Part shown: positions 27,701 to 60,696 of the stretch, piece by piece
Numbering within the stretch: the stretch's first letter is position 1
Layout of the letters: every line of letters begins with the position of its first letter
IMG/VR virus record: IMGVR_UViG_3300025687_000024
Span: 32,001 to 96,000 of that record
Direction: 5' to 3' (one strand)
DNA from: a virus
Length of the DNA: 64,000 bases
The notes under the pieces: model-generated
The model's database searches: none
The model's input: only the letters and a program-made list of their open reading frames with translations
What the model was told of the DNA's origin: nothing
Made by a program: the position numbers and the translations under genes

Positions 27701-28068
27701 GCCAGTACGACACCGTCAGGGAACAGATCATCCTCATGGCGTTCGAGGAAGAGCTCGAGAAGATCGCCGCCGGCTGGTTCACCCCCATCAAGAAGGGGCT
27801 GAAGTCGGCGGGCCACCGCATCATCTCCAAGGCGGCGCCCACGGGCAGCGGGGCGGCTACCGCTGGCATCCGCGGCCTGCGGAAGGGCGTGAAGCAGGGC
27901 AAGCGTGGCTACTGGAAGGCCGGCAAGAAGGCCAGCTTCAAGACGCGGGCGCGGGTCTTCGGAGCCAACGCCATGAACTTCGCCGCGCGGAACCCCGGTA
28001 CCGCTGCTGCGGGCGTCGGCCTGGGAGCGGTCGGTGCGGGTGCTGTGGGCGCCAAGGTCCTGAGCTAA
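27697..28068 (+). CDS. Leader-bearing cationic/amphipathic small protein (putative head cargo)
   Basis: AFEEELEKIA leader followed by 99 aa with no D/E and a C-terminal Gly-zipper. Confidence 0.65.
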   Translation: MSQYDTVREQIILMAFEEELEKIAAGWFTPIKKGLKSAGHRIISKAAPTGSGAATAGIRGLRKGVKQGKRGYWKAGKKASFKTRARVFGANAMNFAARNPGTAAAGVGLGAVGAGAVGAKVLS

Positions 28069-28072
28069 GCCT

Positions 28073-30004
28073 ATGTCGGGTAGCGGCTTCGGTCCATCCT
28101 CCGGGTACCGCATGAGCGGCAGCAGCAGCTACGCCTTCGGTTCACTGGATGGGAGGAACAACAGCTTCAAGTACCCCTCGGCCTGGTGGGATGCGGCTCA
28201 CATGGAGCTGCCCACCACGGTCAAGCACCTCTTCAAGTGGTGCCGCTACCATGCCGTCGCCAACCCGCTCATCAGCTCGACGACCCGCAAGATGGCGTCG
28301 TACCCCATCACGCGGCTCATCATCGAAGACGAGCCCATGGAGGGGTTCGGCAAGAACAAGGAGCGCTGGGAGGACTTGCTCTTCCGGGTGCTGAACATCC
28401 AGCGGTTCATGTTCGAGGGTGGACTGGACTACCACACCTACGGCAACTGCATCGTCAGCCTGCTCTACCCCTTCCACAAGTACCTCGGGTGCCGCTCTTG
28501 CGGCTTCCGCGAGCGCATCAAGCGGCTGAAGTACCAGCAGGAGTGGACGTTCCGCAACTTCAGCTACGAGCTCAACTGCCCGAAGTGCGGCACCACGGCG
28601 CCGGCCGAGGTCAAGGATGAGTGGTACCTCTCTTACAGAGGCATCAAGATCATCCGCTGGGACCCCTCGTCGATCTCCATCGAGTTCAACCCCATCACCC
28701 AGGCATCCGAGTACGCCTACACGATCCCCGAGCGCATCCGGGCCAAGATCGTGAACAAGCACAAGCCCTACCTCGAGGAGATGCCGCACACCTTCATCCG
28801 GGCGGCGCGTCACCGGCGCCCTGTGCAGCTCGTGGCGGGCAACGTCTTCCACTTCCGAGCGCCGACACCCTCCGTCAGCGGGAACGACTCCGGTTGGGGC
28901 TACCCGCCCATCCTGCCTGCGCTCAAGGACAGCTTCTACCTGCAGGTGCTCAAGAAGGCGAACGAAGCCATCATGCTCGAGCACCTGGTCCCGCTGGACA
29001 TCCTGTTCCCCAGCACGGCCGACGCCCACGCCAACCCCTACCTGCACGTCAACCTCTCCGACTGGAAGCGGCGCATCGAGACCGAGCTGGTCAAGTGGCG
29101 CATGGACCCCAACCACAAGCCGATCCTGCCGCTCCCCGTGGGGTACCAGCGTGTGGGCGGCACGGGGCGCAGCTTGATGCCTGTGCAGGAGATCCGAGCC
29201 TGGTCCGAGCACATCGTCGTGGGCATGGGGGTTCCTCAGGAGTTCGCCTTCGGGGGCTTGACCTGGTCAGGTTCGAGCGTCTCCATGCGCATGCTGGAGA
29301 ACCACTTCCTGATGTACCGGGACATGCTGCACCACTTCATCCAGCACTTCCTGATCCCGAGCGTCTCCCGGTTCATGAACTGGCAGCCAGTCTCGGCCCG
29401 GATGAAGTCCTTCAAGATGGCCGACGACATGCAGATGAAGCAGCTGCTGCTGTCGCTCAACCAGATGAAGAAGCTGTCGGACAAGAGCTTGTTGGCCGAC
29501 TTCGACAAGGACTCCCTCGAGGAGCTGCGCCTCATCGAGCAGGAGCAGCGACGCGCGCACGATGTGCAGCGGCAGGACCAGCTGGCCCAGGCGGAGGCAC
29601 AGGGCGAGTCCCAGCAGGTCGCCACCAAGTTCCAGATCCGCGCCGAGGAGATGATGCGGAAGCATCAGGAGAGCCTGCAGCGGGAGCAGACGCAGGTGAT
29701 GGGGAGCCAGCCCCCGGCACCCGGGCAGGATCCCGCACTGGCAGCAGGCCAGCCCCAGGCTCCCGGTCGACCGCCTGCCCAGCAGCACGTCAGCAACGTC
29801 AACGTCATCGAGCTGGCCGATGCTTGGGCCAAGCGCCTGCTCGGCCTGGAGCAGCACGAGCAGTCCCGGGTCCTCCAGGACATGGCTCGCCAGAGCCCCT
29901 CCCTGCACAAGCTCATCCTGCAAAAGATGAGCGAGGTGAGGGCGGCGACGCAGGAGCCGCTGCCAGAGCAGAGGCCCCCACGTCGCCAGAACGCGGTGAT
30001 CTGA
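28073..30004 (+). CDS. Portal protein
   Basis: Portal-type pattern: NPLISS..RKMASYP, DYHTYGN, NVFHFR, WGYPPILPALK, GVPQEF. Coiled-coil C-terminus. Confidence 0.75.
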   Translation: MSGSGFGPSSGYRMSGSSSYAFGSLDGRNNSFKYPSAWWDAAHMELPTTVKHLFKWCRYHAVANPLISSTTRKMASYPITRLIIEDEPMEGFGKNKERWEDLLFRVLNIQRFMFEGGLDYHTYGNCIVSLLYPFHKYLGCRSCGFRERIKRLKYQQEWTFRNFSYELNCPKCGTTAPAEVKDEWYLSYRGIKIIRWDPSSISIEFNPITQASEYAYTIPERIRAKIVNKHKPYLEEMPHTFIRAARHRRPVQLVAGNVFHFRAPTPSVSGNDSGWGYPPILPALKDSFYLQVLKKANEAIMLEHLVPLDILFPSTADAHANPYLHVNLSDWKRRIETELVKWRMDPNHKPILPLPVGYQRVGGTGRSLMPVQEIRAWSEHIVVGMGVPQEFAFGGLTWSGSSVSMRMLENHFLMYRDMLHHFIQHFLIPSVSRFMNWQPVSARMKSFKMADDMQMKQLLLSLNQMKKLSDKSLLADFDKDSLEELRLIEQEQRRAHDVQRQDQLAQAEAQGESQQVATKFQIRAEEMMRKHQESLQREQTQVMGSQPPAPGQDPALAAGQPQAPGRPPAQQHVSNVNVIELADAWAKRLLGLEQHEQSRVLQDMARQSPSLHKLILQKMSEVRAATQEPLPEQRPPRRQNAVI

Positions 30005-38646: not shown

Positions 38647-39852
38647 GTGGCGAGTTGGGTTCAGTTCGAGACGATGCCGGAGCAGGCGTCCCAGATCGCG
38701 GCCGCGGTCGATGAAGGGCAGGCCGCACTGAGTACGGTGGCTACGGTGCTCGACGGCGTGGCTACGGTGCTCAACGTCATCTCGGCCTTCGCCGTGAGCG
38801 ACGTCAACGCGGCGCGCGCCATCTCCCTGGCTCTCGTAGCGCTCATCGACTCCTTGATCATGGATGTGCTCCAGAACAACGTGGGGCTCTGTCTCCACCT
38901 GAACCTGGAGTGGGATCCCGACTGGACCTACGACGAGTCCTGGCTGGAGAACTCCCAGCTTCCGTGGAAGGCCCGCGGGGTGACCAACTGGCTGGCCGAT
39001 GTCGCCGCCTCCACGCGGGATGAGTCGGACCCCCTGCGCCCCCTGACGGACGACGACACCTACGTGGGTGGCTTCATCCTGCTGCAGGGCGTCTCCAGCC
39101 ACGAGGAGCTCGAAGACCTCAAGGCGCTCTTCGACATGTTCACCAACATGTCCGCGTTCCGCGAGACGCTCGACACCTACGATCGCCTGGGGAACGTCAC
39201 CGAGGCCAACAAGCCCCTCACCAGGCTGGGCCCTGCCATGGCGAGCTCGCTCATGCACGCGCTGGTCTGTGACCCCGAGCAGGAGGGAGCAGCTGTGCTG
39301 GAGCAGATCGGGGCCACCACGGTCGAGGACTTCCTCCCTCTGCGAGGCAACTACCCGAAGTGGGCGTCGTTGCCCATGGCGGCCACGGTCCCTGCGATGA
39401 AGCAGCTCATCGACAAGCTGCGCCAGCTGCGCGAGTCCATCAAGCCCTCGCTGGACAAGGCCGAGCAGATCGCCCTGCTTGCCAGCCTCATCGCGAACAA
39501 GGCAGCTCTGCTCTCCGACTCGCTGGACGAGGTGGGGGAGCTGCTCGAGAGCATCGAGAGCCTGATCGCCTTCTTGCGCAGTGGAAACGTGCATTTCATC
39601 TGGATTCCCGACGACGAGCCAGGCGGGATGGCCAACTTCATCAACCGGGCCGTTACCGCCGAGAACCTGCCTGACTTCGGATCAGATGGTATTGTTGTGG
39701 GTGTCGTCGGTATCGTGACCGGAGATGATATGGCCAACCACATGCAGCGCTTCTGGGAGATGCTGGGCCTCCAAGCCGACGCTTTCGTCACCGGAACCGA
39801 CACCCTGGCTGCGAACATCGACGCGGCCTTCGCAGACATCTTCCCCGAGTAG
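38647..39852 (+). CDS. Hypothetical virion protein (helical, 401 aa)
   Basis: AGGAG RBS plus GTG at 38647. Amphipathic helices. Confidence 0.6.
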   Translation: MASWVQFETMPEQASQIAAAVDEGQAALSTVATVLDGVATVLNVISAFAVSDVNAARAISLALVALIDSLIMDVLQNNVGLCLHLNLEWDPDWTYDESWLENSQLPWKARGVTNWLADVAASTRDESDPLRPLTDDDTYVGGFILLQGVSSHEELEDLKALFDMFTNMSAFRETLDTYDRLGNVTEANKPLTRLGPAMASSLMHALVCDPEQEGAAVLEQIGATTVEDFLPLRGNYPKWASLPMAATVPAMKQLIDKLRQLRESIKPSLDKAEQIALLASLIANKAALLSDSLDEVGELLESIESLIAFLRSGNVHFIWIPDDEPGGMANFINRAVTAENLPDFGSDGIVVGVVGIVTGDDMANHMQRFWEMLGLQADAFVTGTDTLAANIDAAFADIFPE

Positions 39853-39862
39853 GAGCCCCTCC

Positions 39863-47989: not shown

Positions 47990-48534
47990 TGAACGTGGTG
48001 CTCGCCCTGGCGTTCCAGCAGGAGCTGGAGAAGATCGCAGACGCGACGGCCGACTCGTGGTTCGGGCAGTACCGAAGCCACTGGCGGGGGGCGGCTGAAT
48101 CGTCGCGGCCCGGAGCCAAGCGCTTCAACAAGGCGCTGGACATGCTCTGGAGCGGCAAGGAAGTTCAGACGCCCGGCATCGGGGGGAAGCTCGGGAAGCT
48201 TCCCTTCATCGGAGGTCCGTCGACGGTCCGTGTGGGCGGCATCGGCGGGGGCATCCAAGCTGGCGGCGAGGGCGTAGGCCGCGCCTTGCGCACGCCTGCC
48301 AGGATGCTCGTGGGTGTTCCGGCCAAGGCCGTGTGGCAGGGCACGAAGGCGGTCACCAAGGGAGTCGCCCGTACCGCGGGGACGGTCATCCGCAAGCAGC
48401 CCCTCGGCGCCGCGATGACGGGCTACTTCGCCTACGCCGGAGCTGGGCACGGCGCCAGTGCGCTCCGACGAGGGACCGCACAAGCGAGAACGGCTACCAA
48501 GCGATACATGGGGCAAGTCAGGAGGCCGACGTGA
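47989..48534 (+). CDS. Leader-bearing cationic Gly-rich protein (putative head cargo)
   Basis: AFQQELEKIA leader, basic Gly/Ala-rich body. Confidence 0.65.
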   Translation: MNVVLALAFQQELEKIADATADSWFGQYRSHWRGAAESSRPGAKRFNKALDMLWSGKEVQTPGIGGKLGKLPFIGGPSTVRVGGIGGGIQAGGEGVGRALRTPARMLVGVPAKAVWQGTKAVTKGVARTAGTVIRKQPLGAAMTGYFAYAGAGHGASALRRGTAQARTATKRYMGQVRRPT

Positions 48535-49142: not shown

Positions 49143-50828
49143 ATGTCCGACTTCCCAGGCATCCCCAAGACGCTTCCCGTCACCGTCGGCGGCTCCGATC
49201 CGCTGGGGCGGTGCTTCGCCGAGGCGGTCGACGTCACGCGCGCGGGCGGTGGGGGCCTGGAGAAGATCGCCGGCGTGCGCGAGCTGCATCCCGAGATCGA
49301 CGCCTACCTGAAGCAGCTGCGGCCGGATCCGGCCTACCAGTTCGTGCTCATGACCCCGCTGGGGGCCTACGAGTACTGGGGGATGAACGTCAACGGGGAC
49401 ATCTTCCCCGAGATCGCGCTGGCGCACGACCACCTCAAGCAGAACCCCCGAGACGTCATCAGGCGCCTCGAGGCACGCTGGGTGACCCCGCACGGGCGAC
49501 GCCTCCCCCCGGGCAACTACCACGAGTTCGGGCACAAGACGTTCCTGAACGCCAAGCGCTACCTGCACCACGTCAACAAGAACCCCGAGATCGCCTACGG
49601 GGACATCGTGGTGGCGGTCTACAACCCCGCGATGCACCGCGTGGAGGTCATCGTCCGGCACGACCGGGAGATGGCCAAGAAGGTGGGGGCGCAGGATGTC
49701 ATCGACGACATCGACGAGCGCAAGCCTCGCCAGATCTCGATGGGGTGCAAGGTTCCCTTCGACGTCTGCACCAAGTGCGGCTCCATCTCGAAGACCACGC
49801 GCGACTACTGCGAGTGCCTGCTCACGCAGCGGGCACAGATCCTGCCTGACGGGCGGATCGTCGGCATGGTCAACCTCTTCCCCCGCTTCTTCGACCTCTC
49901 GGACGTCTTCGTTCCGGCAGCGAAGGAGTCCGGGGTACTGCTCAAGGTGGCCTCGGCGGCAGGGACCCGCTTCTTCGTGCCGCACTCCTACTTCGAGCGC
50001 ATTGGTACGCGGCCGCCAGCGGACGCCATCGAGGTGACGCGCGAAGGCGTGCTGGTCAAGGTGGCGCACGACAAGCAGGCCGAAGCTGCCAAGAGCGCCG
50101 AAGTGACCAAGGAGATCCTCCCCAACGCTGGCCCGAATGTGGAGCGCCTGACTGCGCGCGAACCCGACATTCCAACCGGCCTGTTGGGGGGCGACTTCGA
50201 GCAGCTCGTCAACACGCTGGCGCTGCTGGGGATCGTGCTCAAGCCACACGAGTTCCAGCACGGAGCGCTCACAGGCGCGGGCCTGGGTGACCTGGCGTCC
50301 CAGCTGAGCGCGAAGCGCCAGGTGTTCACGCCGGCTACCTCCGAGAGTGCGCTTCGCCTGAGCTGCGAGAGCTACAGTCCGAACCTCGCGCGCCTGTTGG
50401 CGTCCTTGCTGGCGTCCCGGTCTGCCTTCCATCCGCACCTTCCCGCGCGCTCGTTGCAGCTCGTCGTGGTGAAGTCTCCCAAGCTCCCGCCCAAGCGAGA
50501 GCAGGTCGAGAACACGCCACCTCTGCAGAAGGTTGCGGAGGCCTACGACGCCTACAGGAAGGCACTTGTCTACCTTCCAGGCCTGCTACCGCAGGCTATC
50601 GACAACGACCCGGCCTTCTACCGGGAGCACTATCTGGGAGAACTCTTCGAGAACTCCTGGGAGAAGCTCGCGTCGGGGAGTACCGAGAAGGGGTTGTCTC
50701 CGCCCCCCGTATCGGTATACCTTACGGCTGCGCACCGTGATCGCGGTGGTGTTCCTTCTTCGTGGGATCGGGTACTACCTCCACACACAGCCGCACGGGC
50801 ACTGCTCGGAATCGAGGATCTCTCATGA
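49143..50828 (+). CDS. Prohead maturation protease (HK97/assemblin-like) with Zn-binding insert
   Basis: NVNGDIFP, YLHHVNK (His), ISMGC (Ser), CTKC...CEC, FFDLSDVFVPA. Upstream of scaffold and capsid genes. Confidence 0.7.
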   Translation: MSDFPGIPKTLPVTVGGSDPLGRCFAEAVDVTRAGGGGLEKIAGVRELHPEIDAYLKQLRPDPAYQFVLMTPLGAYEYWGMNVNGDIFPEIALAHDHLKQNPRDVIRRLEARWVTPHGRRLPPGNYHEFGHKTFLNAKRYLHHVNKNPEIAYGDIVVAVYNPAMHRVEVIVRHDREMAKKVGAQDVIDDIDERKPRQISMGCKVPFDVCTKCGSISKTTRDYCECLLTQRAQILPDGRIVGMVNLFPRFFDLSDVFVPAAKESGVLLKVASAAGTRFFVPHSYFERIGTRPPADAIEVTREGVLVKVAHDKQAEAAKSAEVTKEILPNAGPNVERLTAREPDIPTGLLGGDFEQLVNTLALLGIVLKPHEFQHGALTGAGLGDLASQLSAKRQVFTPATSESALRLSCESYSPNLARLLASLLASRSAFHPHLPARSLQLVVVKSPKLPPKREQVENTPPLQKVAEAYDAYRKALVYLPGLLPQAIDNDPAFYREHYLGELFENSWEKLASGSTEKGLSPPPVSVYLTAAHRDRGGVPSSWDRVLPPHTAARALLGIEDLS

Positions 50829-51256
50829 GCGACATGGCCTCCCTCCTGGACTCCATCTACAACTCCGACCAGCGGGTGAGCCCCCTCGAGAAGACCGCCG
50901 AGGCGGCCATGCTCGAGCAGCTGGGGCAGTCCGGACAGACCGCCGGCGCGCTGCGCGACATGAGCACCGCCGAGCTCATCGCCCTGGCCACGCAGCTCGA
51001 GGCCGACGAGGGCACCGAGAAGACGGCCTCCGCCCAGCCGGCCGCGGCGGAGCCCGAGGACACCTCCGAGCTCGAGAAGGTGGCCTACGACACCTTCGGC
51101 GGGCAGCTGATGGCCCACGCCTTCACCCACGAGCTGGGGCTCATGAAGGTCGCCATGATCAACGGCAAGTGCCGCGTGTGCAAGGAGAACGCCATGGACA
51201 TCCAGGGCAGCTCCATCTGCAGCGCCTGCCACGCCGAGGCAGACAGCGCCGAATAG
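50825..51256 (+). CDS. Acidic head protein with K-x-A sites and C-terminal CxxC-CxxC
   Basis: LEKTAE, EKTAS, EKVAY, GQLMAHAFTHELGLMKVA. Confidence 0.6.
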   Translation: MSDMASLLDSIYNSDQRVSPLEKTAEAAMLEQLGQSGQTAGALRDMSTAELIALATQLEADEGTEKTASAQPAAAEPEDTSELEKVAYDTFGGQLMAHAFTHELGLMKVAMINGKCRVCKENAMDIQGSSICSACHAEADSAE

Positions 51257-51260
51257 CGCT

Positions 51261-51560
51261 ATGCTGGAATCCTTCGCCACGGAGCTCGAGAAGTTGGCCA
51301 ACACCGCCACCAAGAACGTCCCTCAAGTCGGCCTGGGCATGACCCTGCCGTCTGGGAACAGCGGTGCTGGTGTGCGAACTTCGTCGGCGCGCGGCCTGGG
51401 AATCAAGCACCAGCCTCCGATGCCTCGACCGCCGCGGGGAATGAGCAGCAAGGCGGTCAAGACCCCCAGCACGGGACGGCTTGGCACCAAGATCGACCCC
51501 GCTCGCGGGATCAAGACTGTACCAACCCCGCTCCGAGGTGATACCTTGGTGCGTGCGTGA
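51261..51560 (+). CDS. Leader-bearing basic protein (putative head cargo)
   Basis: SFATELEKLA leader, basic Pro-rich body. Confidence 0.6.
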   Translation: MLESFATELEKLANTATKNVPQVGLGMTLPSGNSGAGVRTSSARGLGIKHQPPMPRPPRGMSSKAVKTPSTGRLGTKIDPARGIKTVPTPLRGDTLVRA

Positions 51561-51576: not shown

Positions 51577-52266
51577 ATGCTCTCTCTGAACGACATGATC
51601 CGTCAGGCCATCGGGGACGCGGAAGAGGCCGAGCAGTCGGCCCCGACCACTCCCGAGGTGCAGGCGGCTCCCCCCGCCTCTTCCGGTGCGAGCATCGACC
51701 ACGGTGAGCTGAGCAAGCTCGCCAGCGCGCTGGAGTTCGTCGGTACCCGCGGTGTCGAGTCCCTGCTGGTGCTCGAGAAGGACGCCAGCGCCGCCGCGCC
51801 GCCCGCGGGCACCAACGCCGGGCAGACGCACGGCGAGAAGAAGCAGTCCCAGGTGCAGCCGCACAAGGGCGCTCCTCCCATGAAGCCCAAGGCCACGGGT
51901 GCTCCCGACGACAACGAGCACCAGCGCCCGGGCGGCAACGCCCCCTCGCCCGACACCTCGAGCACCCAGAAGGGCGCCAGCCACCCCGGCCTCAAGAGCA
52001 ACGAAGCCGCCATCGGCGTCACCAAGGCCGACAAGGCCAAGCTCGTCGCCCCCGCGCTCTCCAAGCTGCTCTCCGCCACCCCCTTCGCGGACCCCAAGGT
52101 GAAGGAGAACCTGCGCAACGCGGGCAAGGCCGGCGAGCGCAACATCAACGCGGGCAAGGCCAAGACCGCCTCGGGCGAGGCCGCTCCCCAGCTCCCCCCG
52201 GGGGTCAACCTCGAGCAGGTGCGCGAAGAGCTCGCGCGCCGCGTCAACGACGGAGGGCAGGCCTGA
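51577..52266 (+). CDS. Scaffold/core-like protein
   Basis: Low complexity. SKLAS, EKDAS, AKTAS. GAGG RBS. Confidence 0.55.
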   Translation: MLSLNDMIRQAIGDAEEAEQSAPTTPEVQAAPPASSGASIDHGELSKLASALEFVGTRGVESLLVLEKDASAAAPPAGTNAGQTHGEKKQSQVQPHKGAPPMKPKATGAPDDNEHQRPGGNAPSPDTSSTQKGASHPGLKSNEAAIGVTKADKAKLVAPALSKLLSATPFADPKVKENLRNAGKAGERNINAGKAKTASGEAAPQLPPGVNLEQVREELARRVNDGGQA

Positions 52267-52652
52267 TGCTCACCAAGATCGGATCCGCCGAGCTCAACGG
52301 GCTCCTCATCAAGTCCGCCGCCGCCATCCGCGACCTCTCCGCCGAGAACGAGCAGCTGCGTGCTCAGCTCGCCAAGAAGGACCGGCGCGAGCACGCCGTC
52401 AAGATCGCCAGCGTGGCGGTCGAGCGCGGCATCGTGGCCGAGGACGCGCAGGCCGAGTACGCGCAGACCCTCGCTTCCGGCTCCCGGAACCTCGATGACG
52501 TCGAGGAACTGGTCAGCCACGCCGCCGCTGGACTCCCCCTGGGCGAACTCACCAAGGAGGCTGCCGACGGCGACGGCGCTTCCGGAGTCGTCCCGGGCGC
52601 CGCCGAGCAGAAGTTCGCCTCCTTCCTCACGAACAGTGGCATCGTCCACTAG
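52266..52652 (+). CDS. Capsid scaffolding-like coiled-coil protein
   Basis: Coiled coil, VKIAS, C-terminal amphipathic AEQKFASFL. Lies upstream of the capsid genes. Confidence 0.55.
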   Translation: MLTKIGSAELNGLLIKSAAAIRDLSAENEQLRAQLAKKDRREHAVKIASVAVERGIVAEDAQAEYAQTLASGSRNLDDVEELVSHAAAGLPLGELTKEAADGDGASGVVPGAAEQKFASFLTNSGIVH

Positions 52653-53225: not shown

Positions 53226-54254
53226 ATGAGCACCGACGCTGCCACCCTGAACCAGCTCTTCCTGGCCCATCTGGAGCACCCCGAGGGCAAGGAGAAGCTC
53301 GCGGCCGTGGGCCGTACCTACGTGCGTGACAAGCTGCGCGAGAACAGCTTCGCCCGCAAGATCCTCCCGCCCCAGATGGTCACCAAGGCCGACATGCAGG
53401 TGTCCGTGAACCACGACACCCTCGTCTACATCGACGAGATCGAGCCCAACTCCAGGGCCATGTCGCTGACCTTCCGCGGCCAGCCCACCGCGCGCTACAT
53501 CCGCGCCTCCCGCTACGAGATCCCCATCTTCACCATCTCGAGCGAGCGCTTCGAGAAGACGGAGCAGGAGCTCCTCGCCTACCGGATGCCCATCACCCGG
53601 GTGATCGAGGACAACTCGGTCAAGGACATCCAGGAGATCGAGGACTACCGCTTCCTGGTCTACGTCGATGCGGCCATCTCCAACACCGAGCAGATCGTCA
53701 AGGGCACCCAGGCCCAGGACGATATCGAGGCCAACGGGCTGAACTCCGGCTTCCGCGGCACCCTCGAGCGCGCCGACCTGGTCCTGCTGTTCAAGGAGCT
53801 CGACTCCCGTCGTCGCCGCCTGGCCACGGTGCTGATGAACGAGGAGAACTGGGACGATGTCCTGAACTGGACCATCGAGGACTTCGGCGACAAGCAGGCC
53901 TCGGTGACCGTCGACGGCTACACCTACGACCGCCTGATGGGTCGGAAGATCATCCGTACCATCAAGACGGACATCCTCCAGACCGGCAACATCTACGGCT
54001 TCTGCGCGCCCGAGTGGCTCGGCAAGTTCCTCATCCTGAACGCCACCAAGTTCTACATCGACAAGGTGTACAACCTGGTCATGTGGCAGGCCTGGGAGGA
54101 CATCGGCATGGGCATCGGCAACATCGCCAGCATGGCCAAGCTCGAGCTCTACAACGACACCACCGACGTCCTGATCTCCGAGGATGAGGTCGGCACCACG
54201 GTCTACAACGAGGCCGACGATGGTCTGACCTTCCCGCAGGTCAGCCACTACTAG
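53226..54254 (+). CDS. Major capsid protein (HK97 fold)
   Basis: 342 aa with very strong codon bias. RDKLRENSFARKILPP, IQEIED..F, WEDIGMGIGN. Order protease-scaffold-decoration-MCP. Confidence 0.75.
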   Translation: MSTDAATLNQLFLAHLEHPEGKEKLAAVGRTYVRDKLRENSFARKILPPQMVTKADMQVSVNHDTLVYIDEIEPNSRAMSLTFRGQPTARYIRASRYEIPIFTISSERFEKTEQELLAYRMPITRVIEDNSVKDIQEIEDYRFLVYVDAAISNTEQIVKGTQAQDDIEANGLNSGFRGTLERADLVLLFKELDSRRRRLATVLMNEENWDDVLNWTIEDFGDKQASVTVDGYTYDRLMGRKIIRTIKTDILQTGNIYGFCAPEWLGKFLILNATKFYIDKVYNLVMWQAWEDIGMGIGNIASMAKLELYNDTTDVLISEDEVGTTVYNEADDGLTFPQVSHY

Positions 54255-55502: not shown

Positions 55503-56435
55503 ATGGCCATCCACGACGTCCTCGCCCGCATCTACGGCCTCGACAAGACCGCCTCCGAGCAGGAGACGGAGCTCGACCTCGACAACATGAGCGCCGTCGA
55601 CTTCCTCGCCGGCATCGAGAGCGGCGAGATCGTCTACGTCGACGGTGACGAGCCCGAGGCCGAGAAGACCGCCGGCGACGAGGGAGAGCTCGACCTCGAC
55701 AACATGAGCGCGACCCAGCTCCTGCAGGGGCTCGAGAGCGGCGAGATCGTGTTCGACGACGGCAGCGATCCCGAGGCCGAGAAGACCGCGGGCTTCGACC
55801 TCGACAGCCTCACCCAGGAGCAGCTCGAGAGCATGTCGGCCGAGGAGCTCATCGAGCTGGCCAACTCGCTCGACGAGGATCCCGGGGAGCAGGAGAAGGT
55901 CGCCGCCGAGCAGCAGTACTGGCTCGACGCCGGGGCCCTGATGGCGCGCGGCTACGCCTCCGAGCTGGAGAAGCTGTCCTCCGAGCAGATGCCCGACGAG
56001 CTCGAGATCGACATGAGCAAGATCACCGGCGCCGATCTCGTGGAGCTCATGGAGCACTACGAGTTCGTCGAGGACGACGAGCCCCAGGTGGAGAAGACCG
56101 CCGGCGGGCTGGGCAGCCTCCTGAAGTTCAAGGGCGCCCGGAAGGCCTTCAAGGGCTCCCGGAAGGCCGGCGAGACGGCCGAGGAGGCCCTGAAGGCGCG
56201 CAAGAGCGCCGCCAAGGACGCCGCCAAGGCGGCGGGCAAGGGCGACGACAAGGCCGTCGTCGATGCCTTCAAGCGCGGCCGCGACGCCCACAAGGCCGGC
56301 AAGGCCGCCAAGAAGGAAGCCCGCAAGCTGCGCCGCAAGGGCTACAAGAAGGCCGGGCAGAGCGCCGCGGTCTACGGCGGTGGCCTGGCCGCCGCTGGCG
56401 GACTCGCCGCGGGCACCAAGGCCGCGCTGGACTAG
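55503..56435 (+). CDS. Bipartite acidic-repeat / cationic protein (putative processed head protein)
   Basis: Start MAIHDVL with GGAG RBS. Acidic repeats ending in EKTA/EKVA, Lys/Ala-rich C-terminus with Gly-zipper. Confidence 0.65.
   Translation: MAIHDVLARIYGLDKTASEQETELDLDNMSAVDFLAGIESGEIVYVDGDEPEAEKTAGDEGELDLDNMSATQLLQGLESGEIVFDDGSDPEAEKTAGFDLDSLTQEQLESMSAEELIELANSLDEDPGEQEKVAAEQQYWLDAGALMARGYASELEKLSSEQMPDELEIDMSKITGADLVELMEHYEFVEDDEPQVEKTAGGLGSLLKFKGARKAFKGSRKAGETAEEALKARKSAAKDAAKAAGKGDDKAVVDAFKRGRDAHKAGKAAKKEARKLRRKGYKKAGQSAAVYGGGLAAAGGLAAGTKAALD
55569..55802 (+). repeat. 117-nt (39-aa) tandem direct repeat
   Basis: GAGCTCGACCTCGACAACATGAGCGC at 55569 and 55686. CCCGAGGCCGAGAAGACCGC occurs in both units. 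Confidence 0.8.
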
Positions 56436-56505
56436 GCCCCTACCCCTACCCCCCACGACTGGGTGCCTGCGTCAAGGGCACCATGCCCCAAGCAGGAGGC
56501 ACCCC

Positions 56506-56889
56506 ATGAACGAACTGCTCGCAGGCATCTACGGCACCGGCGACATGGAGAAGGTCGCCTCCCCCGTGGACCCGACCCGCCAGATGACCCTCGACGACCT
56601 GGCCACCGTCATCGTCGTCGACAGTCTCGGTGACGGCGCGGACATGGAGAAGGTCGCCGAGGCGCACCAGGAGGTCTTCGCCGACCTGGTGTCCTTCGAT
56701 CGCGCCGGACGCGCCATGGCCCACCACGAGTTCACCGAGATGGAGAAGATGGCGGCCGCGGGTGACACGGAGGCCCTCGAGGCCTTCTTCGCCGATGTCG
56801 AGTTCGACGACGGCGGTGAGCCCGACCCCCGTCACGCCGCGCGCGAAGCCATCGCCGCGGAGCTGCAGCGCCGCGCCGGCCTGCAGTAG
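56506..56889 (+). CDS. Acidic head protein with EKVA/EKMA sites
   Basis: AGGAGG RBS. DMEKVA twice and GRAMAHHEFTEMEKMA. Confidence 0.65.
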   Translation: MNELLAGIYGTGDMEKVASPVDPTRQMTLDDLATVIVVDSLGDGADMEKVAEAHQEVFADLVSFDRAGRAMAHHEFTEMEKMAAAGDTEALEAFFADVEFDDGGEPDPRHAAREAIAAELQRRAGLQ

Positions 56890-56898
56890 GAGGGCGGC

Positions 56899-57537
56899 GT
56901 GCACCGCCCCGGCGCCTTCGTCCGGGTTGCGGGCACCCTGGAGAAGGTCGCTCGCATCTACGGCAACATCCCCCTGACTCCTGGGGAGTACTCCTGGTCT
57001 GATCGCTACAAGGGCACCCCCTTCTACCGGGAGGCCCTGGAGATCGAACGCCAGGAGGCTCTCGAGGAGGCGCAGGAGGCCCGCGAGCACGTCGAGCAGG
57101 AGTCCTCGCACGCGGCCGAGTCTGCTCTCCGAGTCGAGATCGCCCAGCTGGAGGCCGCTCTCGTGGAGTGGCGCTACCAGAACATGGGGCTCTCCAAGGG
57201 GCAGGCCACCGCGCTGGCCAAGACCGCGGCCCTGTGCGGTCACGTGGCCAAGTGCGTCGAGGGTGGCGGTCCCGTCGAGTGGTCTGACGCCTTCAAGGGG
57301 TCGCCCTACTACCAGCAGGCCATCGAGCTGGAGAAGCGCGACGCCGAGATGGAGGCTGCTCGTGCAGCCAAGCAGGCGGCCAGGCCGGTGTCCAACCGCT
57401 GGGCCGTTCGTCGAGCGCGCCGCACGGCCCTCGAGGCCAAGTACCTGGCCTGGAAGCAGCAACAGCAGGGCGGCGCCCCCACCCAACCTCAACGGGAGGC
57501 GGAGCCGGCGGTTCAGGTCTCCGTCCCACGCGAGTAG
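56899..57537 (+). CDS. Coiled-coil protein with internal duplication
   Basis: WSDRYKGTPFYREALEIE and WSDAFKGSPYYQQAIELE, preceded by LEKVA and AKTAA respectively. Confidence 0.6.
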   Translation: MHRPGAFVRVAGTLEKVARIYGNIPLTPGEYSWSDRYKGTPFYREALEIERQEALEEAQEAREHVEQESSHAAESALRVEIAQLEAALVEWRYQNMGLSKGQATALAKTAALCGHVAKCVEGGGPVEWSDAFKGSPYYQQAIELEKRDAEMEAARAAKQAARPVSNRWAVRRARRTALEAKYLAWKQQQQGGAPTQPQREAEPAVQVSVPRE

Positions 57538-57540: not shown

Positions 57541-58131
57541 ATGAGCCACTCCTTGCCCCCCGAGCTCGCCCGCGGGTTCTTCTCCGAGCTGGAGAAGGTT
57601 GCCATCCTCCTCGGTGCCGGCACCGGAGCGGTCGCTGCCGGTCAAGGGAACCGGGGCGAGGGTGCGCTGTACGGAGGTGCCGGAGGCATCTTGGGCGCCA
57701 TGGCTGGCGCGACCCCGGGCGCTCTCGCTCAGATGGCGCGCGACACTCCCAAGAAGGCACGCCGTGGGCGAGGGAAGATCTCGGCCCTGACCGCTCTCGG
57801 CGTCCTCACTGGAGAGGCTCTGGGCGGCGTCGCCGGCGGGCGCCTGGCCAAGAAGCACGCCCAGGAGCGCCGGGCAAAGCACCGGGAAGCCACCAAGAAG
57901 GCCGTGCGCGAAGCCCTCGCCGAGCAGAAGGAGAAGAAGGGCTCGGTCGAGAAGGTCGCTATCTCCGTCGCCGGTCCGGCGCAGCCGGGGGGCGCTGCGT
58001 TCGTGTTCCAGCTGGCCCGGAGTTCCCAGCGAGAGACCCAGCGCAACCTGCTGCGCCGCACCGGCAAGAAGGCGGTCAAGCTGCGCAAGAAGATCCCGGC
58101 TCCCCAGCAGGTGCCCGCCGCCGCCAAGTAG
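57541..58131 (+). CDS. Leader-bearing Gly-zipper cationic protein (putative head cargo)
   Basis: GFFSELEKVA leader, GxxxG helices, second site EKVAI. Confidence 0.65.
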   Translation: MSHSLPPELARGFFSELEKVAILLGAGTGAVAAGQGNRGEGALYGGAGGILGAMAGATPGALAQMARDTPKKARRGRGKISALTALGVLTGEALGGVAGGRLAKKHAQERRAKHREATKKAVREALAEQKEKKGSVEKVAISVAGPAQPGGAAFVFQLARSSQRETQRNLLRRTGKKAVKLRKKIPAPQQVPAAAK

Positions 58132-58138: not shown

Positions 58139-58627
58139 ATGCTCTCTGCGCCGCTACAGGATGCCTTCATCGCCGAGCTGGAGAAGATCGCCTTCCTCAA
58201 GACCCTCCGGCGGGCCAAGCCCAAGACGCCGCCGAAGCGCGTACGTCGCTTCCGGGTGAAGGCCAACTCCGGGCACCAGCCCGGGGTCGTGCGCAACGGC
58301 TACCTCGAGGCACCGCCCTCCCAAGCGGAGACCAACCGCATCGCTCGGCAGTTCCTCAAGGACCTCGAGAAGCGGTCCTTCGCCAAGGTGGTCACGAAGA
58401 ACACCACCCGCGTGGCCCGTAGTGGTTGGGAGAAGGCAGTGCGCCCCAATCCGTCCGGGATGATCAACCAGACACGCGCCTGGACCATCCGCCCGCGTGG
58501 AGCCCCCGCCGCATCCCAGCGCGCCACCTCCAAGCCCACCAAGCTGAAGGGGTGGGTGCGTCGCAGCACCAAGGAAGAGGTCCGTGCGGGGCCGCGCCCC
58601 GCGCTGGCGCGGGGCGCAGTCAGCTGA
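58139..58627 (+). CDS. Leader-bearing highly basic protein (putative head cargo)
   Basis: AFIAELEKIA leader, Arg/Lys-rich body. Confidence 0.65.
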   Translation: MLSAPLQDAFIAELEKIAFLKTLRRAKPKTPPKRVRRFRVKANSGHQPGVVRNGYLEAPPSQAETNRIARQFLKDLEKRSFAKVVTKNTTRVARSGWEKAVRPNPSGMINQTRAWTIRPRGAPAASQRATSKPTKLKGWVRRSTKEEVRAGPRPALARGAVS

Positions 58628-58646: not shown

Positions 58647-59558
58647 ATGCTCGTTCCCGTCAACATCCGGGTCTGGACCCTCTCCCGCGACTCCCTGACC
58701 ATCTCCTGGGCGTTCCGCAACACCACGGCAGCGCTGGGCGACTACAGCATCACGGTGCTGCGGTCTGGTTCCGCTGCGGGAGGGTACGAGGAGATCTCGA
58801 GCGCCTTCGCGGCAGACGCGACCGTGGAGTTCGTGGACTCCGAGGTAGTCCTGCACTCCAAGTGGCGGGAGTATTTCTACCGGCTGCGGGTCACGGCGCC
58901 CGATGGCTCGACCACGGACTTCGGCTCGGTGGACTACAAGAGGGTCCTGGCTGGAGACGACGCCGGCGGCGTCGTGCTGGAGAGCTTGCCCGACCTGGTG
59001 GCCCTCGAGGCCATCCGGCGTTTCGACATGCTCCTGCAGACCAAGATCGGGCGGGAGCTCCTGGTGCTCAACCACAGGTCCACTGGGCAGCGCTGTGCCG
59101 AGTGTTGGGACAACTTGAAGAGGCGACGTACCAAGAGCAAGTGCCTGACCTGCTACGGCGTGGGGGTCTCCGGGGGGTACTACTTCCCCAAGCAGGCCTG
59201 GGCCGCCAAGGTACCCCACCGGGCATCCGTACAGCTCACCCCGCTGTTCGAGATGCAGAACAACGACGCGCTCCTGTGGATGTCGTCGCGTCCACGGGTG
59301 GTCCCGCGTGACCTGGTCATCGATGCTGATGGGCGGCGCTGGCGCGTCATCGACATTCAGCGGCACGAGAAGCTGTGGGCTCTCACCCGACAGACCGTGC
59401 AGGTGCGCGAGCTGTCCAAGGACCAGGTGGAGTACGACATCCCGATCTCGGCTGACGAGTGGGACATCGACCCGGTGGCGGCCACGCCCTACAGGCAGTA
59501 CATCAATGCTACGAACCTCGACAGTCACCGTCGAGCGAAGCGGGAGCTTGGCCTATGA
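58647..59558 (+). CDS. Head closure / neck protein with Zn finger
   Basis: FN3-like N-terminus, CAEC...CLTCYGVG.SGGY, PRDLVID.DGRRWRV. Confidence 0.6.
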   Translation: MLVPVNIRVWTLSRDSLTISWAFRNTTAALGDYSITVLRSGSAAGGYEEISSAFAADATVEFVDSEVVLHSKWREYFYRLRVTAPDGSTTDFGSVDYKRVLAGDDAGGVVLESLPDLVALEAIRRFDMLLQTKIGRELLVLNHRSTGQRCAECWDNLKRRRTKSKCLTCYGVGVSGGYYFPKQAWAAKVPHRASVQLTPLFEMQNNDALLWMSSRPRVVPRDLVIDADGRRWRVIDIQRHEKLWALTRQTVQVRELSKDQVEYDIPISADEWDIDPVAATPYRQYINATNLDSHRRAKRELGL

Positions 59559-60106
59559 TCATGCCCACCCTCTCCGTCGCAACCGTCCGCGCCTTCCAAG
59601 GCGAGCTGGTCAAGATCGCGAAGGTGACCCCAGCTACCGTGGCCCTCGGGGCGCTCGCGGGAGGCAGCGCTGGGGCACTGGCGCACAAGCACTACACCAA
59701 GGACGAGCGGTCGAAGGACGAACTGCTGCGGGACCTGAAGCGCATGCCCGAGAAGACCTACCAGGCTCGGCGCAAGGAGCGGGGTGCGCGCACGGCAGGC
59801 GCGGCGGCGCTCGGCGCCATGACGGGCGCGGGGGCTCCCGTGCTCTACAGGGAGGCGGCCCGAGCTGTTGGGCGCGCAGTGGACCGCACGGTCAAGCCCA
59901 CGCTGCAGACGGCCAAGAGCGGGATCGACGACTCCGTTGAGAAGGGCGTCGCCGAGTACGACCGCATGCTGCAGCGCCAGGCCGACTACCTGCTCGACCA
60001 GCTCCGCGGTCCGCGGGGGGCACGCGCCGCCGAGACCCTCGGGGAGAGTGCGCGCAAGGGCTTCCTGCCCAGGTTCCTCCGCCGGCGGAGGGCCAACCCG
60101 CAGTGA
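59555..60106 (+). CDS. Leader-bearing Gly-zipper protein (putative head cargo)
   Basis: AFQGELVKIA leader, two hydrophobic GxxxG segments. Confidence 0.65.
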   Translation: MIMPTLSVATVRAFQGELVKIAKVTPATVALGALAGGSAGALAHKHYTKDERSKDELLRDLKRMPEKTYQARRKERGARTAGAAALGAMTGAGAPVLYREAARAVGRAVDRTVKPTLQTAKSGIDDSVEKGVAEYDRMLQRQADYLLDQLRGPRGARAAETLGESARKGFLPRFLRRRRANPQ

Positions 60107-60696
60107 GCCTCTCCCTGACCAGACACGCCTTCGAGGTCGAGCTCACCAAGATCGCCCAGCACAAGTGGCGCAAGGTGGAGAAGCCTCCTGTCGCCCTCGA
60201 TGCCGCGGCGGCCATCGCTACCGGGCTCGGGCTCGGCGCGACGGGCTACATGGGCGCGCGTTTCGGGTACCCGAAGCTGATGAAGCTCCTCGGACGGCCG
60301 GTGGAGCGCCCCTCCAAGAAGGCTCGCGCCATCGCTGCCCTCTTGGCAGGGCTGGCAGGAATGGGCACACTGGAACTCGGCAGGAGATGGGTGAATGACA
60401 AGACCCGGCCAGCAAGCGGCATACGAGCTCGTCGAGCAGTACAACCCGATCACGGGCAACTGGCTCGCGGACACGAAGGACATCCTGCTCAGGTTCCTCC
60501 AAGACTTCTTCTATCAGATGCCGGCGGGGATGGACCTGTTCCACTTCGAACCGGGGGAGGAGGACTACAGCACGGCGGAGACGGAGACGGAGCTGATCGT
60601 TTCCGACGCCGGAGCGGTAGGTACCGATACCGTGGAGACGCGCCCGGCGATCTTGATTTCGCGGGGCCCATTCGCCTACGGCAACGTCAGTCTTGA
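60103..60696 (+). CDS. Leader-bearing two-TM protein (3' end overlaps the next gene)
   Basis: AFEVELTKIA leader, hydrophobic AAAAIATGLGLGATG and AIAALLAGLAGMG. Confidence 0.55.
   Translation: MSLSLTRHAFEVELTKIAQHKWRKVEKPPVALDAAAAIATGLGLGATGYMGARFGYPKLMKLLGRPVERPSKKARAIAALLAGLAGMGTLELGRRWVNDKTRPASGIRARRAVQPDHGQLARGHEGHPAQVPPRLLLSDAGGDGPVPLRTGGGGLQHGGDGDGADRFRRRSGRYRYRGDAPGDLDFAGPIRLRQRQS

What the first reader, a model, noticed from the sequence alone, without database searches (positions are those of the whole stretch)
27739..60156. Shared N-terminal leader [AGS]F-x-x-EL-x-K[IVL]A on seven unrelated cationic or membrane-type proteins: candidate capsid-targeting signal and cargo set
Leaders: AFEEELEKIA (27739), AFQQELEKIA (48010), SFATELEKLA (51270), GFFSELEKVA (57574), AFIAELEKIA (58163), AFQGELVKIA (59591), AFEVELTKIA (60127). 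Each lies within the first ~25 residues, and the sequences downstream are non-homologous. All are basic, and most carry GxxxG hydrophobic helices. The genes are scattered among portal, protease, capsid and neck genes. This resembles the T4 capsid-targeting sequence (MKTYQEFIAE, cleaved on maturation) but has a different helix and cleavage end. Inference: a modular address tag loads a diverse set of proteins into the prohead, and the protease releases them as DNA-condensing or membrane-active ejection effectors. This is my best candidate for an undescribed system in the window.
Basis: partly seen in the sequence, partly recalled or inferred. Interest (0 to 1): 0.92.

Follow-up and report, generated by a model that had tools for sequence, protein, structure and literature searches.

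The report
Shared head-loading leader on phage proteins
An uncultured high-GC phage puts the same ten-residue N-terminal tag on at least 13 unrelated, mostly very basic proteins, and the tag ends in a short motif that looks like the cutting site of the phage's own head-maturation protease. The proteins are therefore probably loaded into the capsid and trimmed there, as phage T4 does with its internal proteins, but no loading or cutting has been measured.

Summary
All seven leaders sit at the stated coordinates, on the + strand, within 4-16 residues of a start codon. The 110.7-kb genome has 11 strict copies and at least two loose ones, against 0.0005 expected by chance.

- **Conservation:** The tag ([AS]-F-x-[DE]-E-L-x-K-I-[AG]) is conserved at the peptide level across a large uncultivated phage clade. 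It heads at least 40 unrelated, mostly basic cargo families.
- **Short motif:** The last five residues of the tag, [LM]-x-K-[IVT]-A, recur 25 times in head and neck proteins, against 0.8 expected.
- **Protease:** ORF 49143-50828 is shown here to be a T4 gp21 / herpesvirus-type prohead protease. The short motif lies at conserved linker positions flanking its catalytic domain.
- **Scaffold link:** A scaffold-like protein family carries the full tag internally.

Best reading (about 0.55): a T4-CTS-like loading leader that ends in the cut site of the phage's own protease, here Lys-x-Ala rather than T4's x-Glu. Packaging, cleavage and injection are unmeasured, and the receptor for the F-x-x-E half is unknown.

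I class it as a new variant of a known kind. This scan has already reported comparable leader-tagged cargo sets on other phage DNA, with different motifs.

The parts
27697..28068 (+). Tagged protein T5 (123 aa, pI 10.9, G/A-rich tail). Leader AFEEELEKIA lies at 27739-27768. The gene sits directly upstream of the portal gene. An alternative start at 27736 would give MAFEEELEKIA.
28073..30004 (+). Portal protein
   Evidence: tblastn to Salmonella phage Arash gp204 'portal protein': 29% identity over 505 aa, E 1e-74
25875..27017 (+). Head-module protein of 380 aa with two short-motif sites (PLVKTA, ELTKVA)
39725..41881 (+). Protein of 718 aa with six short-motif sites (3 strict, 6 loose). Candidate multi-site protease substrate.
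   Evidence: no Pfam family
47105..47989 (+). Conserved head protein of 294 aa with four short-motif sites, two of them conserved across 31 orthologs. In the cultured relatives Arash and Vibrio phage D69, the protein at the matching position (gp220 and a 311-aa protein; orthology not tested) has six sites each.
47989..48534 (+). Tagged protein T6 (181 aa, pI 11.4). Leader AFQQELEKIA lies at 48010-48039. The coding signal leaves this frame near 48430-48530, and relatives have one longer ORF here.
49143..50828 (+). Prohead maturation protease of 561 aa. The catalytic domain spans about residues 60-270 and is followed by a helical C-terminal extension. Short-motif sites lie at residues 39-43, 266-270, 304-308 and 461-465.
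   Evidence: AF2 model from 28 orthologs. Best structural match is T4 gp21 5jbl_B, Z 9.4, rmsd 3.0 A, 139 of 164 residues, followed by herpesvirus proteases at Z 5-7.4. In BFVD, many of the 60 hits at E<=1e-3 are annotated as prohead protease. H142, H143 and S199 are invariant. Site conservation is 28/28, 24/28 and 27/28.
50825..51256 (+). Scaffold-like protein (N-terminal half of the family) ending in a Cys-rich segment. It carries the module GGQLMAHAFTHELGLMKVA and two more sites (PLEKTA, ELEKVA at 51068).
   Evidence: Alignment A3 with 31 relatives. G93 and A97 are invariant; M96, H98 and E103 are nearly so.
51261..51560 (+). Tagged protein T7 (99 aa, pI 11.6). Leader SFATELEKLA lies at 51270-51299. 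A tagged ORF of about 100 aa sits at the same position in 14 related loci.
51577..52266 (+). Charged, Pro/Ala-rich head-module protein with one site (ELSKLA at 51706). The start is inferred from relatives (MLSLNDMIRQ...).
52266..52652 (+). Small coiled-coil protein, a candidate scaffold
   Evidence: Weak Pfam DUF4355 (capsid assembly scaffolding protein Gp46), E 0.022, below the cutoff
53226..54254 (+). Major capsid protein. Its N-terminus carries EGKEKLA, and 66 of 80 orthologs have EK[IVLT]A in the first 60 residues (consensus EGKEKIA).
   Evidence: phrog_2522, E 1e-12; Arash major capsid protein, 34% identity
55374..56435 (+). Protein with an internal full-type module (ALMARGYASELEKLS at 55953) and two more sites. 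The start is uncertain.
   Evidence: relatives have WDMAGRVMAHAYADEIDKTA at the matching place
56263..57537 (+). Two ORFs (56263-56889 and 56899-57537) with five short-motif sites (MEKVA twice, MEKMA, LEKVA, LAKTA)
57541..58131 (+). Tagged protein T8 (196 aa, pI 11.3, glycine-zipper-like segments). Leader GFFSELEKVA lies at 57574-57603. A second site, SVEKVA, lies at residue 131.
   Evidence: no BLASTP homolog in 80 related loci
58139..58627 (+). Tagged protein T9 (162 aa, pI 11.9, 23% Lys+Arg, no hydrophobic segment). Leader AFIAELEKIA lies at 58163-58192.
59555..60106 (+). Tagged protein T10 (183 aa, pI 10.7). Leader AFQGELVKIA lies at 59591-59620.
60103..60696 (+). Tagged protein T11 (197 aa, GTG start, pI 11.2). 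Leader AFEVELTKIA lies at 60127-60156. Its last 100 codons overlap the conserved gene 60395-61168 in another frame.

Best explanation
The leader is a two-part N-terminal propeptide, analogous to the capsid-targeting sequence of phage T4.

**The two halves.**
- The C-terminal half, [LM]-x-K-[IVT]-[AG], is the recognition site of the phage's own prohead protease (ORF 49143-50828, T4 gp21 / herpesvirus assemblin fold).
- The N-terminal half, [AS]-F-x-[DE]-E, together with the rest, forms a short amphipathic acidic helix. This helix copies a module of the scaffold-like head protein (GR-x-MAHAYV-x-EL-x-KIA).
- I infer that the helix docks the tagged protein onto the assembling scaffold core.

**Proposed sequence of events.**
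1. Tagged proteins join the prohead interior during assembly. They are small, very basic, G/A-rich proteins, plus an HExxH protein and a P-loop NTPase encoded outside the window.
2. The protease cuts the scaffold-like proteins, cuts itself, and removes the leaders.
3. The mature cargo stays in the head with the DNA. It is available for ejection into the host.

**Shown here.**
- The tag, its statistics and its conservation.
- The identity of the protease.
- The distribution and conservation of the short motif.

**Inferred.**
- That the motif is cut, and where.
- That the leader causes loading.
- That the cargo is ejected.
For: **The tag.**
- There are 11 strict copies against 0.0005 expected. 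All are N-terminal and sit on mutually unrelated proteins.
- The tag is conserved with synonymous codon turnover in contigs of 42-68% GC. All 33 IMG/VR stretches carrying exact FFDELEKI[AG] have it at or near ORF starts.
- One cargo family of about 600 aa with an HELGH motif keeps the leader at residue 8 in nearly all of 42 homologs that are only 32-42% identical.

**The protease.**
- The AF2 model of 49143-50828 matches T4 gp21 at Z 9.4, rmsd 3.0 A, over 139 of 164 residues. Herpesvirus proteases follow at Z 5-7.4.
- BFVD returns many annotated prohead proteases.
- His142, His143 and Ser199 are invariant.

**The short motif behaves like a cleavage site.**
- Strict [LM]xK[IVT]A occurs 25 times in 26 head/neck proteins, against 0.8 expected (maximum 4 in 500 shuffles).
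- It occurs 3 times in the other 71 proteins, against 1.9 expected. Those three are themselves tagged proteins.
- In the protease family it is conserved in low-confidence linkers at residues 41 (28/28), 268 (24/28), 463 (27/28) and about 508 (21/28). These positions lie before and after the catalytic domain and near the C-terminus.
- Among independent representatives, 81 of 89 keep it about 30 residues before the domain.
- Conserved neck and tail proteins used as controls have no conserved site.

**Only N-terminal copies carry the extra F / [AS] / D / E positions**.

**Scaffold link.**
- The scaffold-like family carries the full module internally.
- Nineteen loci have the canonical internal form and no tagged ORF downstream. 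Fourteen have a variant form plus a tagged ORF of about 100 aa. None has both.

**Cargo behaves like T4 internal-protein loci.**
- Flanking head and neck genes are conserved in 27-80 loci, while T6, T8, T9 and T10 have no homolog there.
- Cargo pI is mostly 9.4-12.

**Cultured distant relatives.**
- Arash virions contain 116 proteins, including the RNA polymerase, the protease homolog and neighbouring G/A-rich proteins (PMC10585845).
- Arash and Vibrio phage D69 show the same short motif in their head modules.
- D69 has an ORF starting MDNVDTLLEKIA followed by a poly-basic protein.

**Established precedent.** T4 capsid-targeting sequences are 10-20-residue propeptides removed by gp21, and all T4 internal head proteins join the core through them (PMC5694885).
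Against: - No proteomic, structural or genetic measurement exists for any phage that carries the full tag.
- The receptor of the F-x-x-E half is not identified.
- Not every occurrence of the short motif can be a cut site. KFYIDK[IV]AN lies inside the capsid-protein fold in 62 of 66 orthologs.
- The Arash virion proteome reports 100% peptide coverage for several motif-bearing proteins (gp221, gp223, gp224). This argues against complete cleavage there. That preparation also contained ribonucleotide reductase and many other enzymes, so it may include unprocessed material.
- Several tagged genes lie outside the head module. These are at genome 8-13 kb and at 99 kb on the opposite strand.
- Some cargo has hydrophobic segments that would also fit a membrane destination.
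- I partly chose the 'head/neck module' used for the enrichment test after seeing the sites. The contrast (25 against 3) is large enough to survive that.
Confidence: 0.55

Rival explanations
1. The leader is only a protease-removable propeptide. It may keep membrane-active or DNA-binding proteins inert until maturation. It has no addressing role, and loading depends on charge, other regions, or timing of expression.
For: The best-supported part of the leader is the cleavage-like LxK[IV]A half. No receptor for the rest was found. The cargo is extremely basic, so it could be co-packaged electrostatically with DNA or with acidic scaffold proteins.
Against: The positions upstream of the site (F at K-6, A/S at K-7, D/E at K-4 and K-3) are conserved only in the N-terminal copies and in the scaffold module. 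They are not conserved in ordinary internal sites. This is more sequence than a gp21- or assemblin-type protease groove normally reads. The leader is kept at a fixed position over 32-42% identity in the HELGH family.
Confidence: 0.2
2. The tagged proteins are disposable core or scaffold components, like T4 gp67 and gp68, rather than delivered cargo. They help build the prohead, are degraded at the motif sites, and leave.
For: The tag is homologous to a scaffold module. T7 occupies the gene position between the scaffold-like gene and the next head gene, as gp67 and gp68 do in T4. T8 has a second internal site. Low-complexity G/A-rich sequence is common in such fillers.
Against: Most tagged proteins have only the leader site, so they would survive as one large fragment. 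Some are enzyme-like, with an invariant HELGH in one and a Walker A motif in another. Scaffold parts would be expected to be conserved, yet these evolve fast while their neighbours are conserved.
Confidence: 0.15
3. The leader addresses proteins to a destination other than the head interior. Possibilities include the neck or tail lumen, the cell membrane, or an intracellular phage compartment. On this view the resemblance to the head-protein motif reflects a shared binding helix, not cleavage.
For: T8-T11 lie among neck and tail genes. Several cargo proteins have glycine-zipper or hydrophobic segments. One tagged gene is on the opposite strand, away from the late genes.
Against: The leader is acidic and amphipathic, unlike Sec, Tat or membrane-targeting sequences. 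The short motif sits in the disordered linkers flanking the protease's catalytic domain, which a binding-helix reading does not explain. No chimallin-type or secretion genes were noticed.
Confidence: 0.1

Closest known systems
Phage T4 capsid-targeting sequence (CTS) on internal proteins IPI-III and Alt, removed by prohead protease gp21 (Mullaney and Black 1996, as summarised in PMC5694885 and PMC9026906)
   Same: A short N-terminal leader of 10-20 residues is shared by unrelated, basic, fast-evolving proteins. The leader ends in the cleavage motif of the phage's own protease. The protease has the gp21 fold. Scaffold and core proteins and the protease itself carry the same cleavage motif.
   Different: There is no sequence relationship to MKTYQEFIAE; the FIAE in one leader is coincidental. 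The inferred site is [LM]-x-K-[IVT]-A rather than L/I-x-Glu. The protease carries a helical C-terminal extension of about 290 residues. The tag is homologous to an internal scaffold module. There are at least 13 tagged proteins in a partial genome, including HExxH and P-loop proteins. Nothing has been measured.
Propeptides of head and ejection proteins in phiKZ-like giant phages (phiKZ gp175, SPN3US gp245; PMC5694885, PMC10052503)
   Same: Many head-internal proteins are processed by a gp21-type protease. The protease cleaves itself. A virion RNA polymerase is packaged; in the cultured relative Arash, the homolog of this genome's 2036-aa polymerase is the most abundant virion protein.
   Different: In those phages the cut follows Glu (S/A/G-x-E). 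Propeptides are mostly over 100 residues and are not one shared short tag.
Herpesvirus protease-scaffold polyprotein (assemblin, pUL26) with release and maturation sites (V/L/I)-x-Ala|Ser. The site consensus is from my own knowledge and was not checked in a paper here.
   Same: The layout is a catalytic domain, then a linker, then a scaffold-like C-terminal part. Conserved sites lie just after the domain and near the C-terminus. Small residues follow the conserved Ala (S, A or G are common at K+3).
   Different: The residue order differs (K-[IV]-A against [VLI]-x-A). This is a phage, not a herpesvirus. The exact scissile bond is unknown.
Leader-tagged cargo sets reported earlier by this scan on other phage genomes (e1-3862018, e1-5951120, e1-5895423 and others)
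   Same: Many unrelated small proteins share an N-terminal tag that ends in the presumed cut site of a T4-type head protease.
   Different: Those tags end in aliphatic-x-Glu or hydrophobic-x-His. This one ends in Lys-[IV]-Ala, belongs to another clade, and has a scaffold-derived helix.

Membership tests
T4-type capsid-targeting-sequence system | One short N-terminal leader shared by otherwise unrelated proteins | tested here: met
   Eleven strict copies against 0.0005 expected. All cargo sequences are singletons in all-against-all BLASTP. Alignment A2 of 35 leaders has E and K invariant and F at 90% or more.
T4-type capsid-targeting-sequence system | The phage encodes a gp21-type prohead protease | tested here: met
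   Model of 49143-50828 against 5jbl_B: Z 9.4, rmsd 3.0 A, 139 of 164 residues. Prohead proteases appear in BFVD.
T4-type capsid-targeting-sequence system | The leader ends in the motif at which that protease cuts head proteins | tested here: inconclusive
   The leader ends in [LM]xK[IVT]A. That motif is about 30-fold enriched in head proteins and conserved in the linkers flanking the protease domain. No cleavage has been observed.
T4-type capsid-targeting-sequence system | Cleavage after Glu in L/I-x-E, with sequence similarity to MKTYQEFIAE | tested here: not met
   The conserved end of the leader is K-[IVL]-[AG]. The Glu residues lie upstream and are not followed by variable sequence. Only one leader contains FIAE.
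T4-type capsid-targeting-sequence system | The leader is sufficient to load a protein into proheads, and mature cargo in virions lacks it | not testable with these tools
   This needs virion proteomics or leader-reporter packaging. No cultured phage with the full tag was found.
Assemblin / gp21-like serine protease (herpesvirus-type fold) | Catalytic His and Ser in the conserved fold | tested here: inconclusive
   H142, H143 and S199 are invariant in 28 orthologs. The spacing of 56-57 residues resembles what I recall for T4 gp21 (His85 to Ser140). Residue-by-residue superposition on the catalytic residues was not available.
Encapsulin cargo-loading peptide | A short peptide that binds the inner face of an HK97-fold shell of a tail-less nanocompartment | tested here: not met
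   The element is a tailed phage with portal, terminase, protease and tail genes. Whether the leader binds the capsid protein itself was not tested.
Sec or Tat signal peptide / membrane-targeting helix | A basic n-region followed by a hydrophobic h-region, or a cationic amphipathic helix | tested here: not met
   The leader is acidic (consensus AFxDELEKIA) and has no hydrophobic core.

The most novel reading that the evidence does not exclude
A very large uncultivated phage clade has a gp21-fold head protease whose specificity has moved from x-Glu to Lys-[Ile/Val/Thr]-Ala. The protease family has 3,274 representatives at 50% clustering. The clade has turned a helix of its own scaffold protein into a portable ten-residue loading tag. 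With this tag it packs a fast-changing arsenal into the capsid for delivery with the DNA. That arsenal includes glycine-zipper proteins, an HExxH protein and a P-loop NTPase. The tag could then serve as a ready-made handle for loading foreign proteins into such phages.
Probability: 0.4. Interest if true: 0.65.

Novelty: new variant of a known kind. Interest (0 to 1): 0.55.

Why it matters
If the reading is right, three things follow.

- **A second capsid-loading tag.** It would be a sequence-defined tag outside the T4 family. It would come from a clade that is abundant in soil, freshwater and marine metagenomes but almost unstudied.
- **A new protease specificity.** It predicts a substrate motif (Lys-x-Ala) for a gp21-fold protease. 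All characterised phage members of that fold cut after Glu.
- **An annotation rule.** A simple sequence rule would identify virion-delivered proteins in thousands of uncultured genomes. These are candidates for early host takeover and anti-defence functions.

It also suggests how such tags arise, by copying a scaffold module. All of this still depends on a proteomic or biochemical test. The principle is known from T4, and this scan has found similar tag sets elsewhere, so the surprise is moderate.

Tried and rejected
**Searches that found nothing**
- **DNA search of the head region against 50,697 phage records:** no match.
- **Pfam and PHROGs on the seven tagged proteins and most neighbours:** no significant family and no family for the leader itself.
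- **Profile of the protease family against PDB sequences:** no hit. Foldseek alone was weak, with best E 0.23. The fold became clear only with VIA-align and BFVD.
- **Literature search for the peptide strings:** only unrelated words were found.
- **Search for a described Lys-x-Ala phage protease site:** nothing found.

**Structure predictions that did not help**
- **Complex prediction:** scaffold-like protein (50825-51256, alignment A3) with the leader (alignment A2) gave no answer, score 0.00 against a mark of 0.32. This is neither support nor evidence against binding.
- **Fold search of the HELGH cargo model:** only generic helical membrane proteins at rmsd of about 28 A, so no assignment.

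**Cultured relative**
- **Arash as a source of proteomic evidence for the tag:** it has the short motif but no N-terminal leader set.

**Ideas considered and dropped**
- **A nucleotide-level signal.** The peptide is kept through synonymous changes.
- **Homology to the T4 CTS.** There is none.
- **A secretion signal.** The composition is wrong.

Full report
**What the window is.**
- The window is bases 32001-96000 of a single 110,689-bp virus contig with 67% GC.
- Relatives flagged complete are 185-193 kb, and relatives of 107-120 kb are rated 58-65% complete. The contig is therefore probably a partial genome.
- Gene functions came from comparison with the cultured but distant Salmonella phage Arash:

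| Window coordinates | Assignment |
|---|---|
| 28073-30004 | portal |
| 30280-36390 | 2036-aa RNA polymerase, homolog of Arash gp206 |
| 43934-45631 | large terminase |
| 49143-50828 | homolog of Arash 'structural protein' gp222 |
| 53226-54254 | major capsid protein (also phrog_2522) |
| after 54977 | neck, tube and sheath homologs |

**The observation.**
- The regex [AGS]F..EL.K[IVL]A hits exactly the seven stated coordinates. All are on the + strand and lie 4-16 residues after a start codon.
- The whole genome has 11 strict hits. The extra ones lie at genome 9335, 12142, 96264 and 99981 on the minus strand.
- Looser copies are YFNELEKIA, FEDELEKIA and SFAAALEKYA.
- From composition, 0.0005 hits are expected, and 200 shuffles gave none.
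- Downstream sequences are mutually unrelated.
- The seven window proteins have pI 10.7-11.9.
- Four of the seven have G/A-rich, moderately hydrophobic segments. One is G-rich only. Two have none.

**Conservation elsewhere.**
- The capsid protein found 227 related IMG/VR contigs at 50-75% identity.
- In their head regions the same leader recurs at ORF starts, with consensus M-x(1-10)-[AS]-F-[FW]-D-E-L-E-K-I-[AG].
- Across 80 loci and three longer genomes I collected 83 unique tagged ORFs in 49 cargo clusters. A few are false or internal calls. Most cargo has pI 9.4-12.
- A collection-wide scan for exact FFDELEKI[AG] returned 33 stretches on contigs of 42-68% GC, essentially all at ORF starts. 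They comprise 31 DNA versions that use every synonymous Leu and Ile codon, so the peptide is what is selected.
- One complete 193-kb relative has about ten tagged genes scattered along the genome.
- Flanking head and neck genes are conserved in 27-80 loci. T6, T8, T9 and T10 have no detectable homolog there. This is the pattern of T4's variable internal-protein loci.

**The protease.**
- ORF 49143-50828 has no Pfam hit and no PDB sequence hit.
- An AF2 model was built from 28 orthologs. It gives a confident domain at about residues 60-255. Residues 1-46 and 256-330 are disordered, and the C-terminal part is helical.
- Realignment of the Foldseek candidates puts T4 gp21 first: 5jbl_B, Z 9.4, rmsd 3.0 A, 139 of 164 residues. 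Some thirty herpesvirus protease entries follow at Z 5-7.4.
- The viral structure library returns 60 hits at E<=1e-3, many annotated as prohead protease.
- H142, H143 and S199 are invariant.
- The family is very large, with 3,274 representatives at 50% clustering. Many are interrupted by intein-like insertions.

**The short motif.** This lead came from another first-stage note on this genome.
- The last five residues of the leader, [LM]-x-K-[IVT]-A, occur 25 times in 26 head and neck proteins. The expectation is 0.8, with a maximum of 4 in 500 shuffles.
- They occur 3 times in the other 71 proteins, against 1.9 expected. Those three are tagged proteins.
- In the protease family the motif is conserved at four places:
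  - in the disordered N-terminal stretch (28 of 28 sequences);
  - immediately after the catalytic domain (24 of 28);
  - at about residue 463 (27 of 28);
  - at about residue 508 (21 of 28).
- Of 89 independent representatives with an intact N-terminus, 81 keep the motif about 30 residues before the domain.
- This is the layout expected for autoprocessing sites. It recalls the herpesvirus protease-scaffold precursor.
- Other proteins with several sites are 39725-41881, 47105-47989, 50825-51256, 55374-56435 and 56263-57537.
- Conserved neck and tail proteins have no conserved site.
- The capsid protein N-terminus carries EGKEKLA. In 66 of 80 orthologs, EK[IVLT]A lies in the first 60 residues (consensus EGKEKIA).
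- One conserved occurrence inside the capsid fold shows that not every match is a cut site.
- Arash and Vibrio phage D69 show the same short motif in the corresponding proteins.
- D69 has a neck-region ORF beginning MDNVDTLLEKIA followed by AKSKKPRKKK.

**What is special about the leader.**
- N-terminal sites have F at K-6, A/S at K-7, D at K-4 and E at K-3. Internal sites do not.
- The exceptions are informative. A scaffold-like family upstream of the capsid gene carries AEAD-x-LGR-x-MAHAYV-x-EL-x-KIA internally. The window's member is 50825-51256.
- Two further proteins carry the same module, at 55953 and at genome 97514.
- Nineteen loci have the canonical internal form and no tagged ORF downstream. 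Fourteen have a variant form plus a tagged ORF of about 100 aa at the position of the window's 51261-51560. None has both. These groups are probably two subclades, so this is not an independent test.
- The leader thus looks like a copy of a scaffold helix.
- In the AF2 model of the HELGH cargo family, the leader is a detached helix (residues 4-22, low confidence) ahead of an all-helical body.

**Mechanism proposed.**
- By analogy with T4, all internal head proteins join the scaffold core through a 10-20-residue leader that gp21 later removes (PMC5694885).
- I propose that the leader docks cargo to the scaffold core and is cut at or next to K-[IV]-A by the gp21-fold protease.
- Shown: the tag, its conservation, the protease fold and the behaviour of the motif.
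- Inferred: cleavage, the scissile bond, loading, the docking partner, and ejection.
- The Arash particle proteome shows that this wider group packs many proteins, including the RNA polymerase. That preparation is too inclusive to inform on processing.

**Rivals.**
- A cleavable propeptide with no addressing role.
- Disposable core proteins rather than delivered cargo.
- A different destination, such as the neck, tail or membrane.

Each is compatible with part of the data. None explains as well the combination of extra conserved leader positions, scaffold homology, single-site cargo and enzyme-like cargo.

**Comparison and novelty.**
- The logic is that of the T4 CTS.
- Membership in the T4 family in the strict sense fails on sequence and on the Glu rule.
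- The inferred Lys-x-Ala specificity, the scaffold-derived helix and the clade are new.
- This scan has already reported similar tag sets with other motifs on other phage DNA.
- I therefore rate this a new variant of a known kind, of moderate interest.

Noticed in passing
window 60103-61168; L003:15657-16731: The tagged ORF 60103-60696 overlaps the conserved gene 60395-61168 by 100 codons in another frame, and third-position GC switches frame at 60395. In a 48%-GC relative the counterpart is also exactly 197 aa. It aligns end to end at 34% identity, including the overlapped part. This may be a conserved overlapping gene or a frameshift product.
   Followed up: partly
window 47989-49139: The coding signal leaves the frame of tagged ORF 47989-48534 near 48430, and another frame takes over near 48530. 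Close relatives (L001:5258-6256, L002:5105-6061, L003:5189-6049) have one ORF of 290-330 aa here, with a G/A-rich front and a conserved back half. The window may hold a split gene, a frameshift or a sequencing error.
   Followed up: partly
L056:2827-6846, L073:16-3579, L020:435-3560, L059:3661-6651, L060:4067-6931, L026:3810-6623: Many orthologs of the prohead protease are 900-1700 aa with the match split into two to four stretches. This suggests insertions; an intein-like insertion is my reading, and it was not tested. The same pattern is seen in much of the top 150 representatives.
   Followed up: no
window 30280-36390: The 2036-aa ORF next to the portal gene is 33% identical over 1548 aa to Arash gp206, annotated as RNA polymerase beta subunit. 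Gp206 is the most abundant protein in the Arash virion proteome (3516 spectra; PMC10585845). It carries no leader.
   Followed up: partly
L102:9317-11152 (genome 9317-11152, outside the window): This is a tagged 611-aa protein with an invariant HELGH motif and hydrophobic helices. It has 42 metagenomic homologs at 32-42% identity, and nearly all carry the leader at residue 8. The AF2 model is all-helical with no PDB fold match. Pfam gives only weak metallopeptidase hits.
   Followed up: partly
L104:2905-4002:- (genome 98905-100002, minus strand): This is a tagged 365-aa protein with a Walker A motif (GATGGTGKT) and weak kinase/AAA Pfam hits. It is the only tagged gene on the opposite strand.
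   Followed up: partly
window 36387-37961: This ORF has T4 gp5 C-terminal repeat matches (PF06715, E 4e-5) and is probably the tail spike or hub protein. It sits between the RNA polymerase and other structural genes.
   Followed up: no
L138:12181-12636 (Vibrio phage D69): This cultured phage has an ORF starting MDNVDTLLEKIA followed by AKSKKPRKKKPSGGRKAK, located among neck genes. It is a simpler form of the leader-plus-basic-cargo arrangement that could be tested at the bench.
   Followed up: partly
window 53226-54254 and 80 orthologs: The capsid protein N-terminus carries EGKEKIA about 20-27 residues from the start (EK[IVLT]A within the first 60 residues in 66 of 80 orthologs). This may be a short capsid propeptide, or it may simply be a conserved N-arm.
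   Followed up: partly
whole contig: The 110.7-kb contig is probably only about 60% of the genome. Related contigs rated complete are 185-193 kb, so more tagged genes are likely to exist.
   Followed up: no
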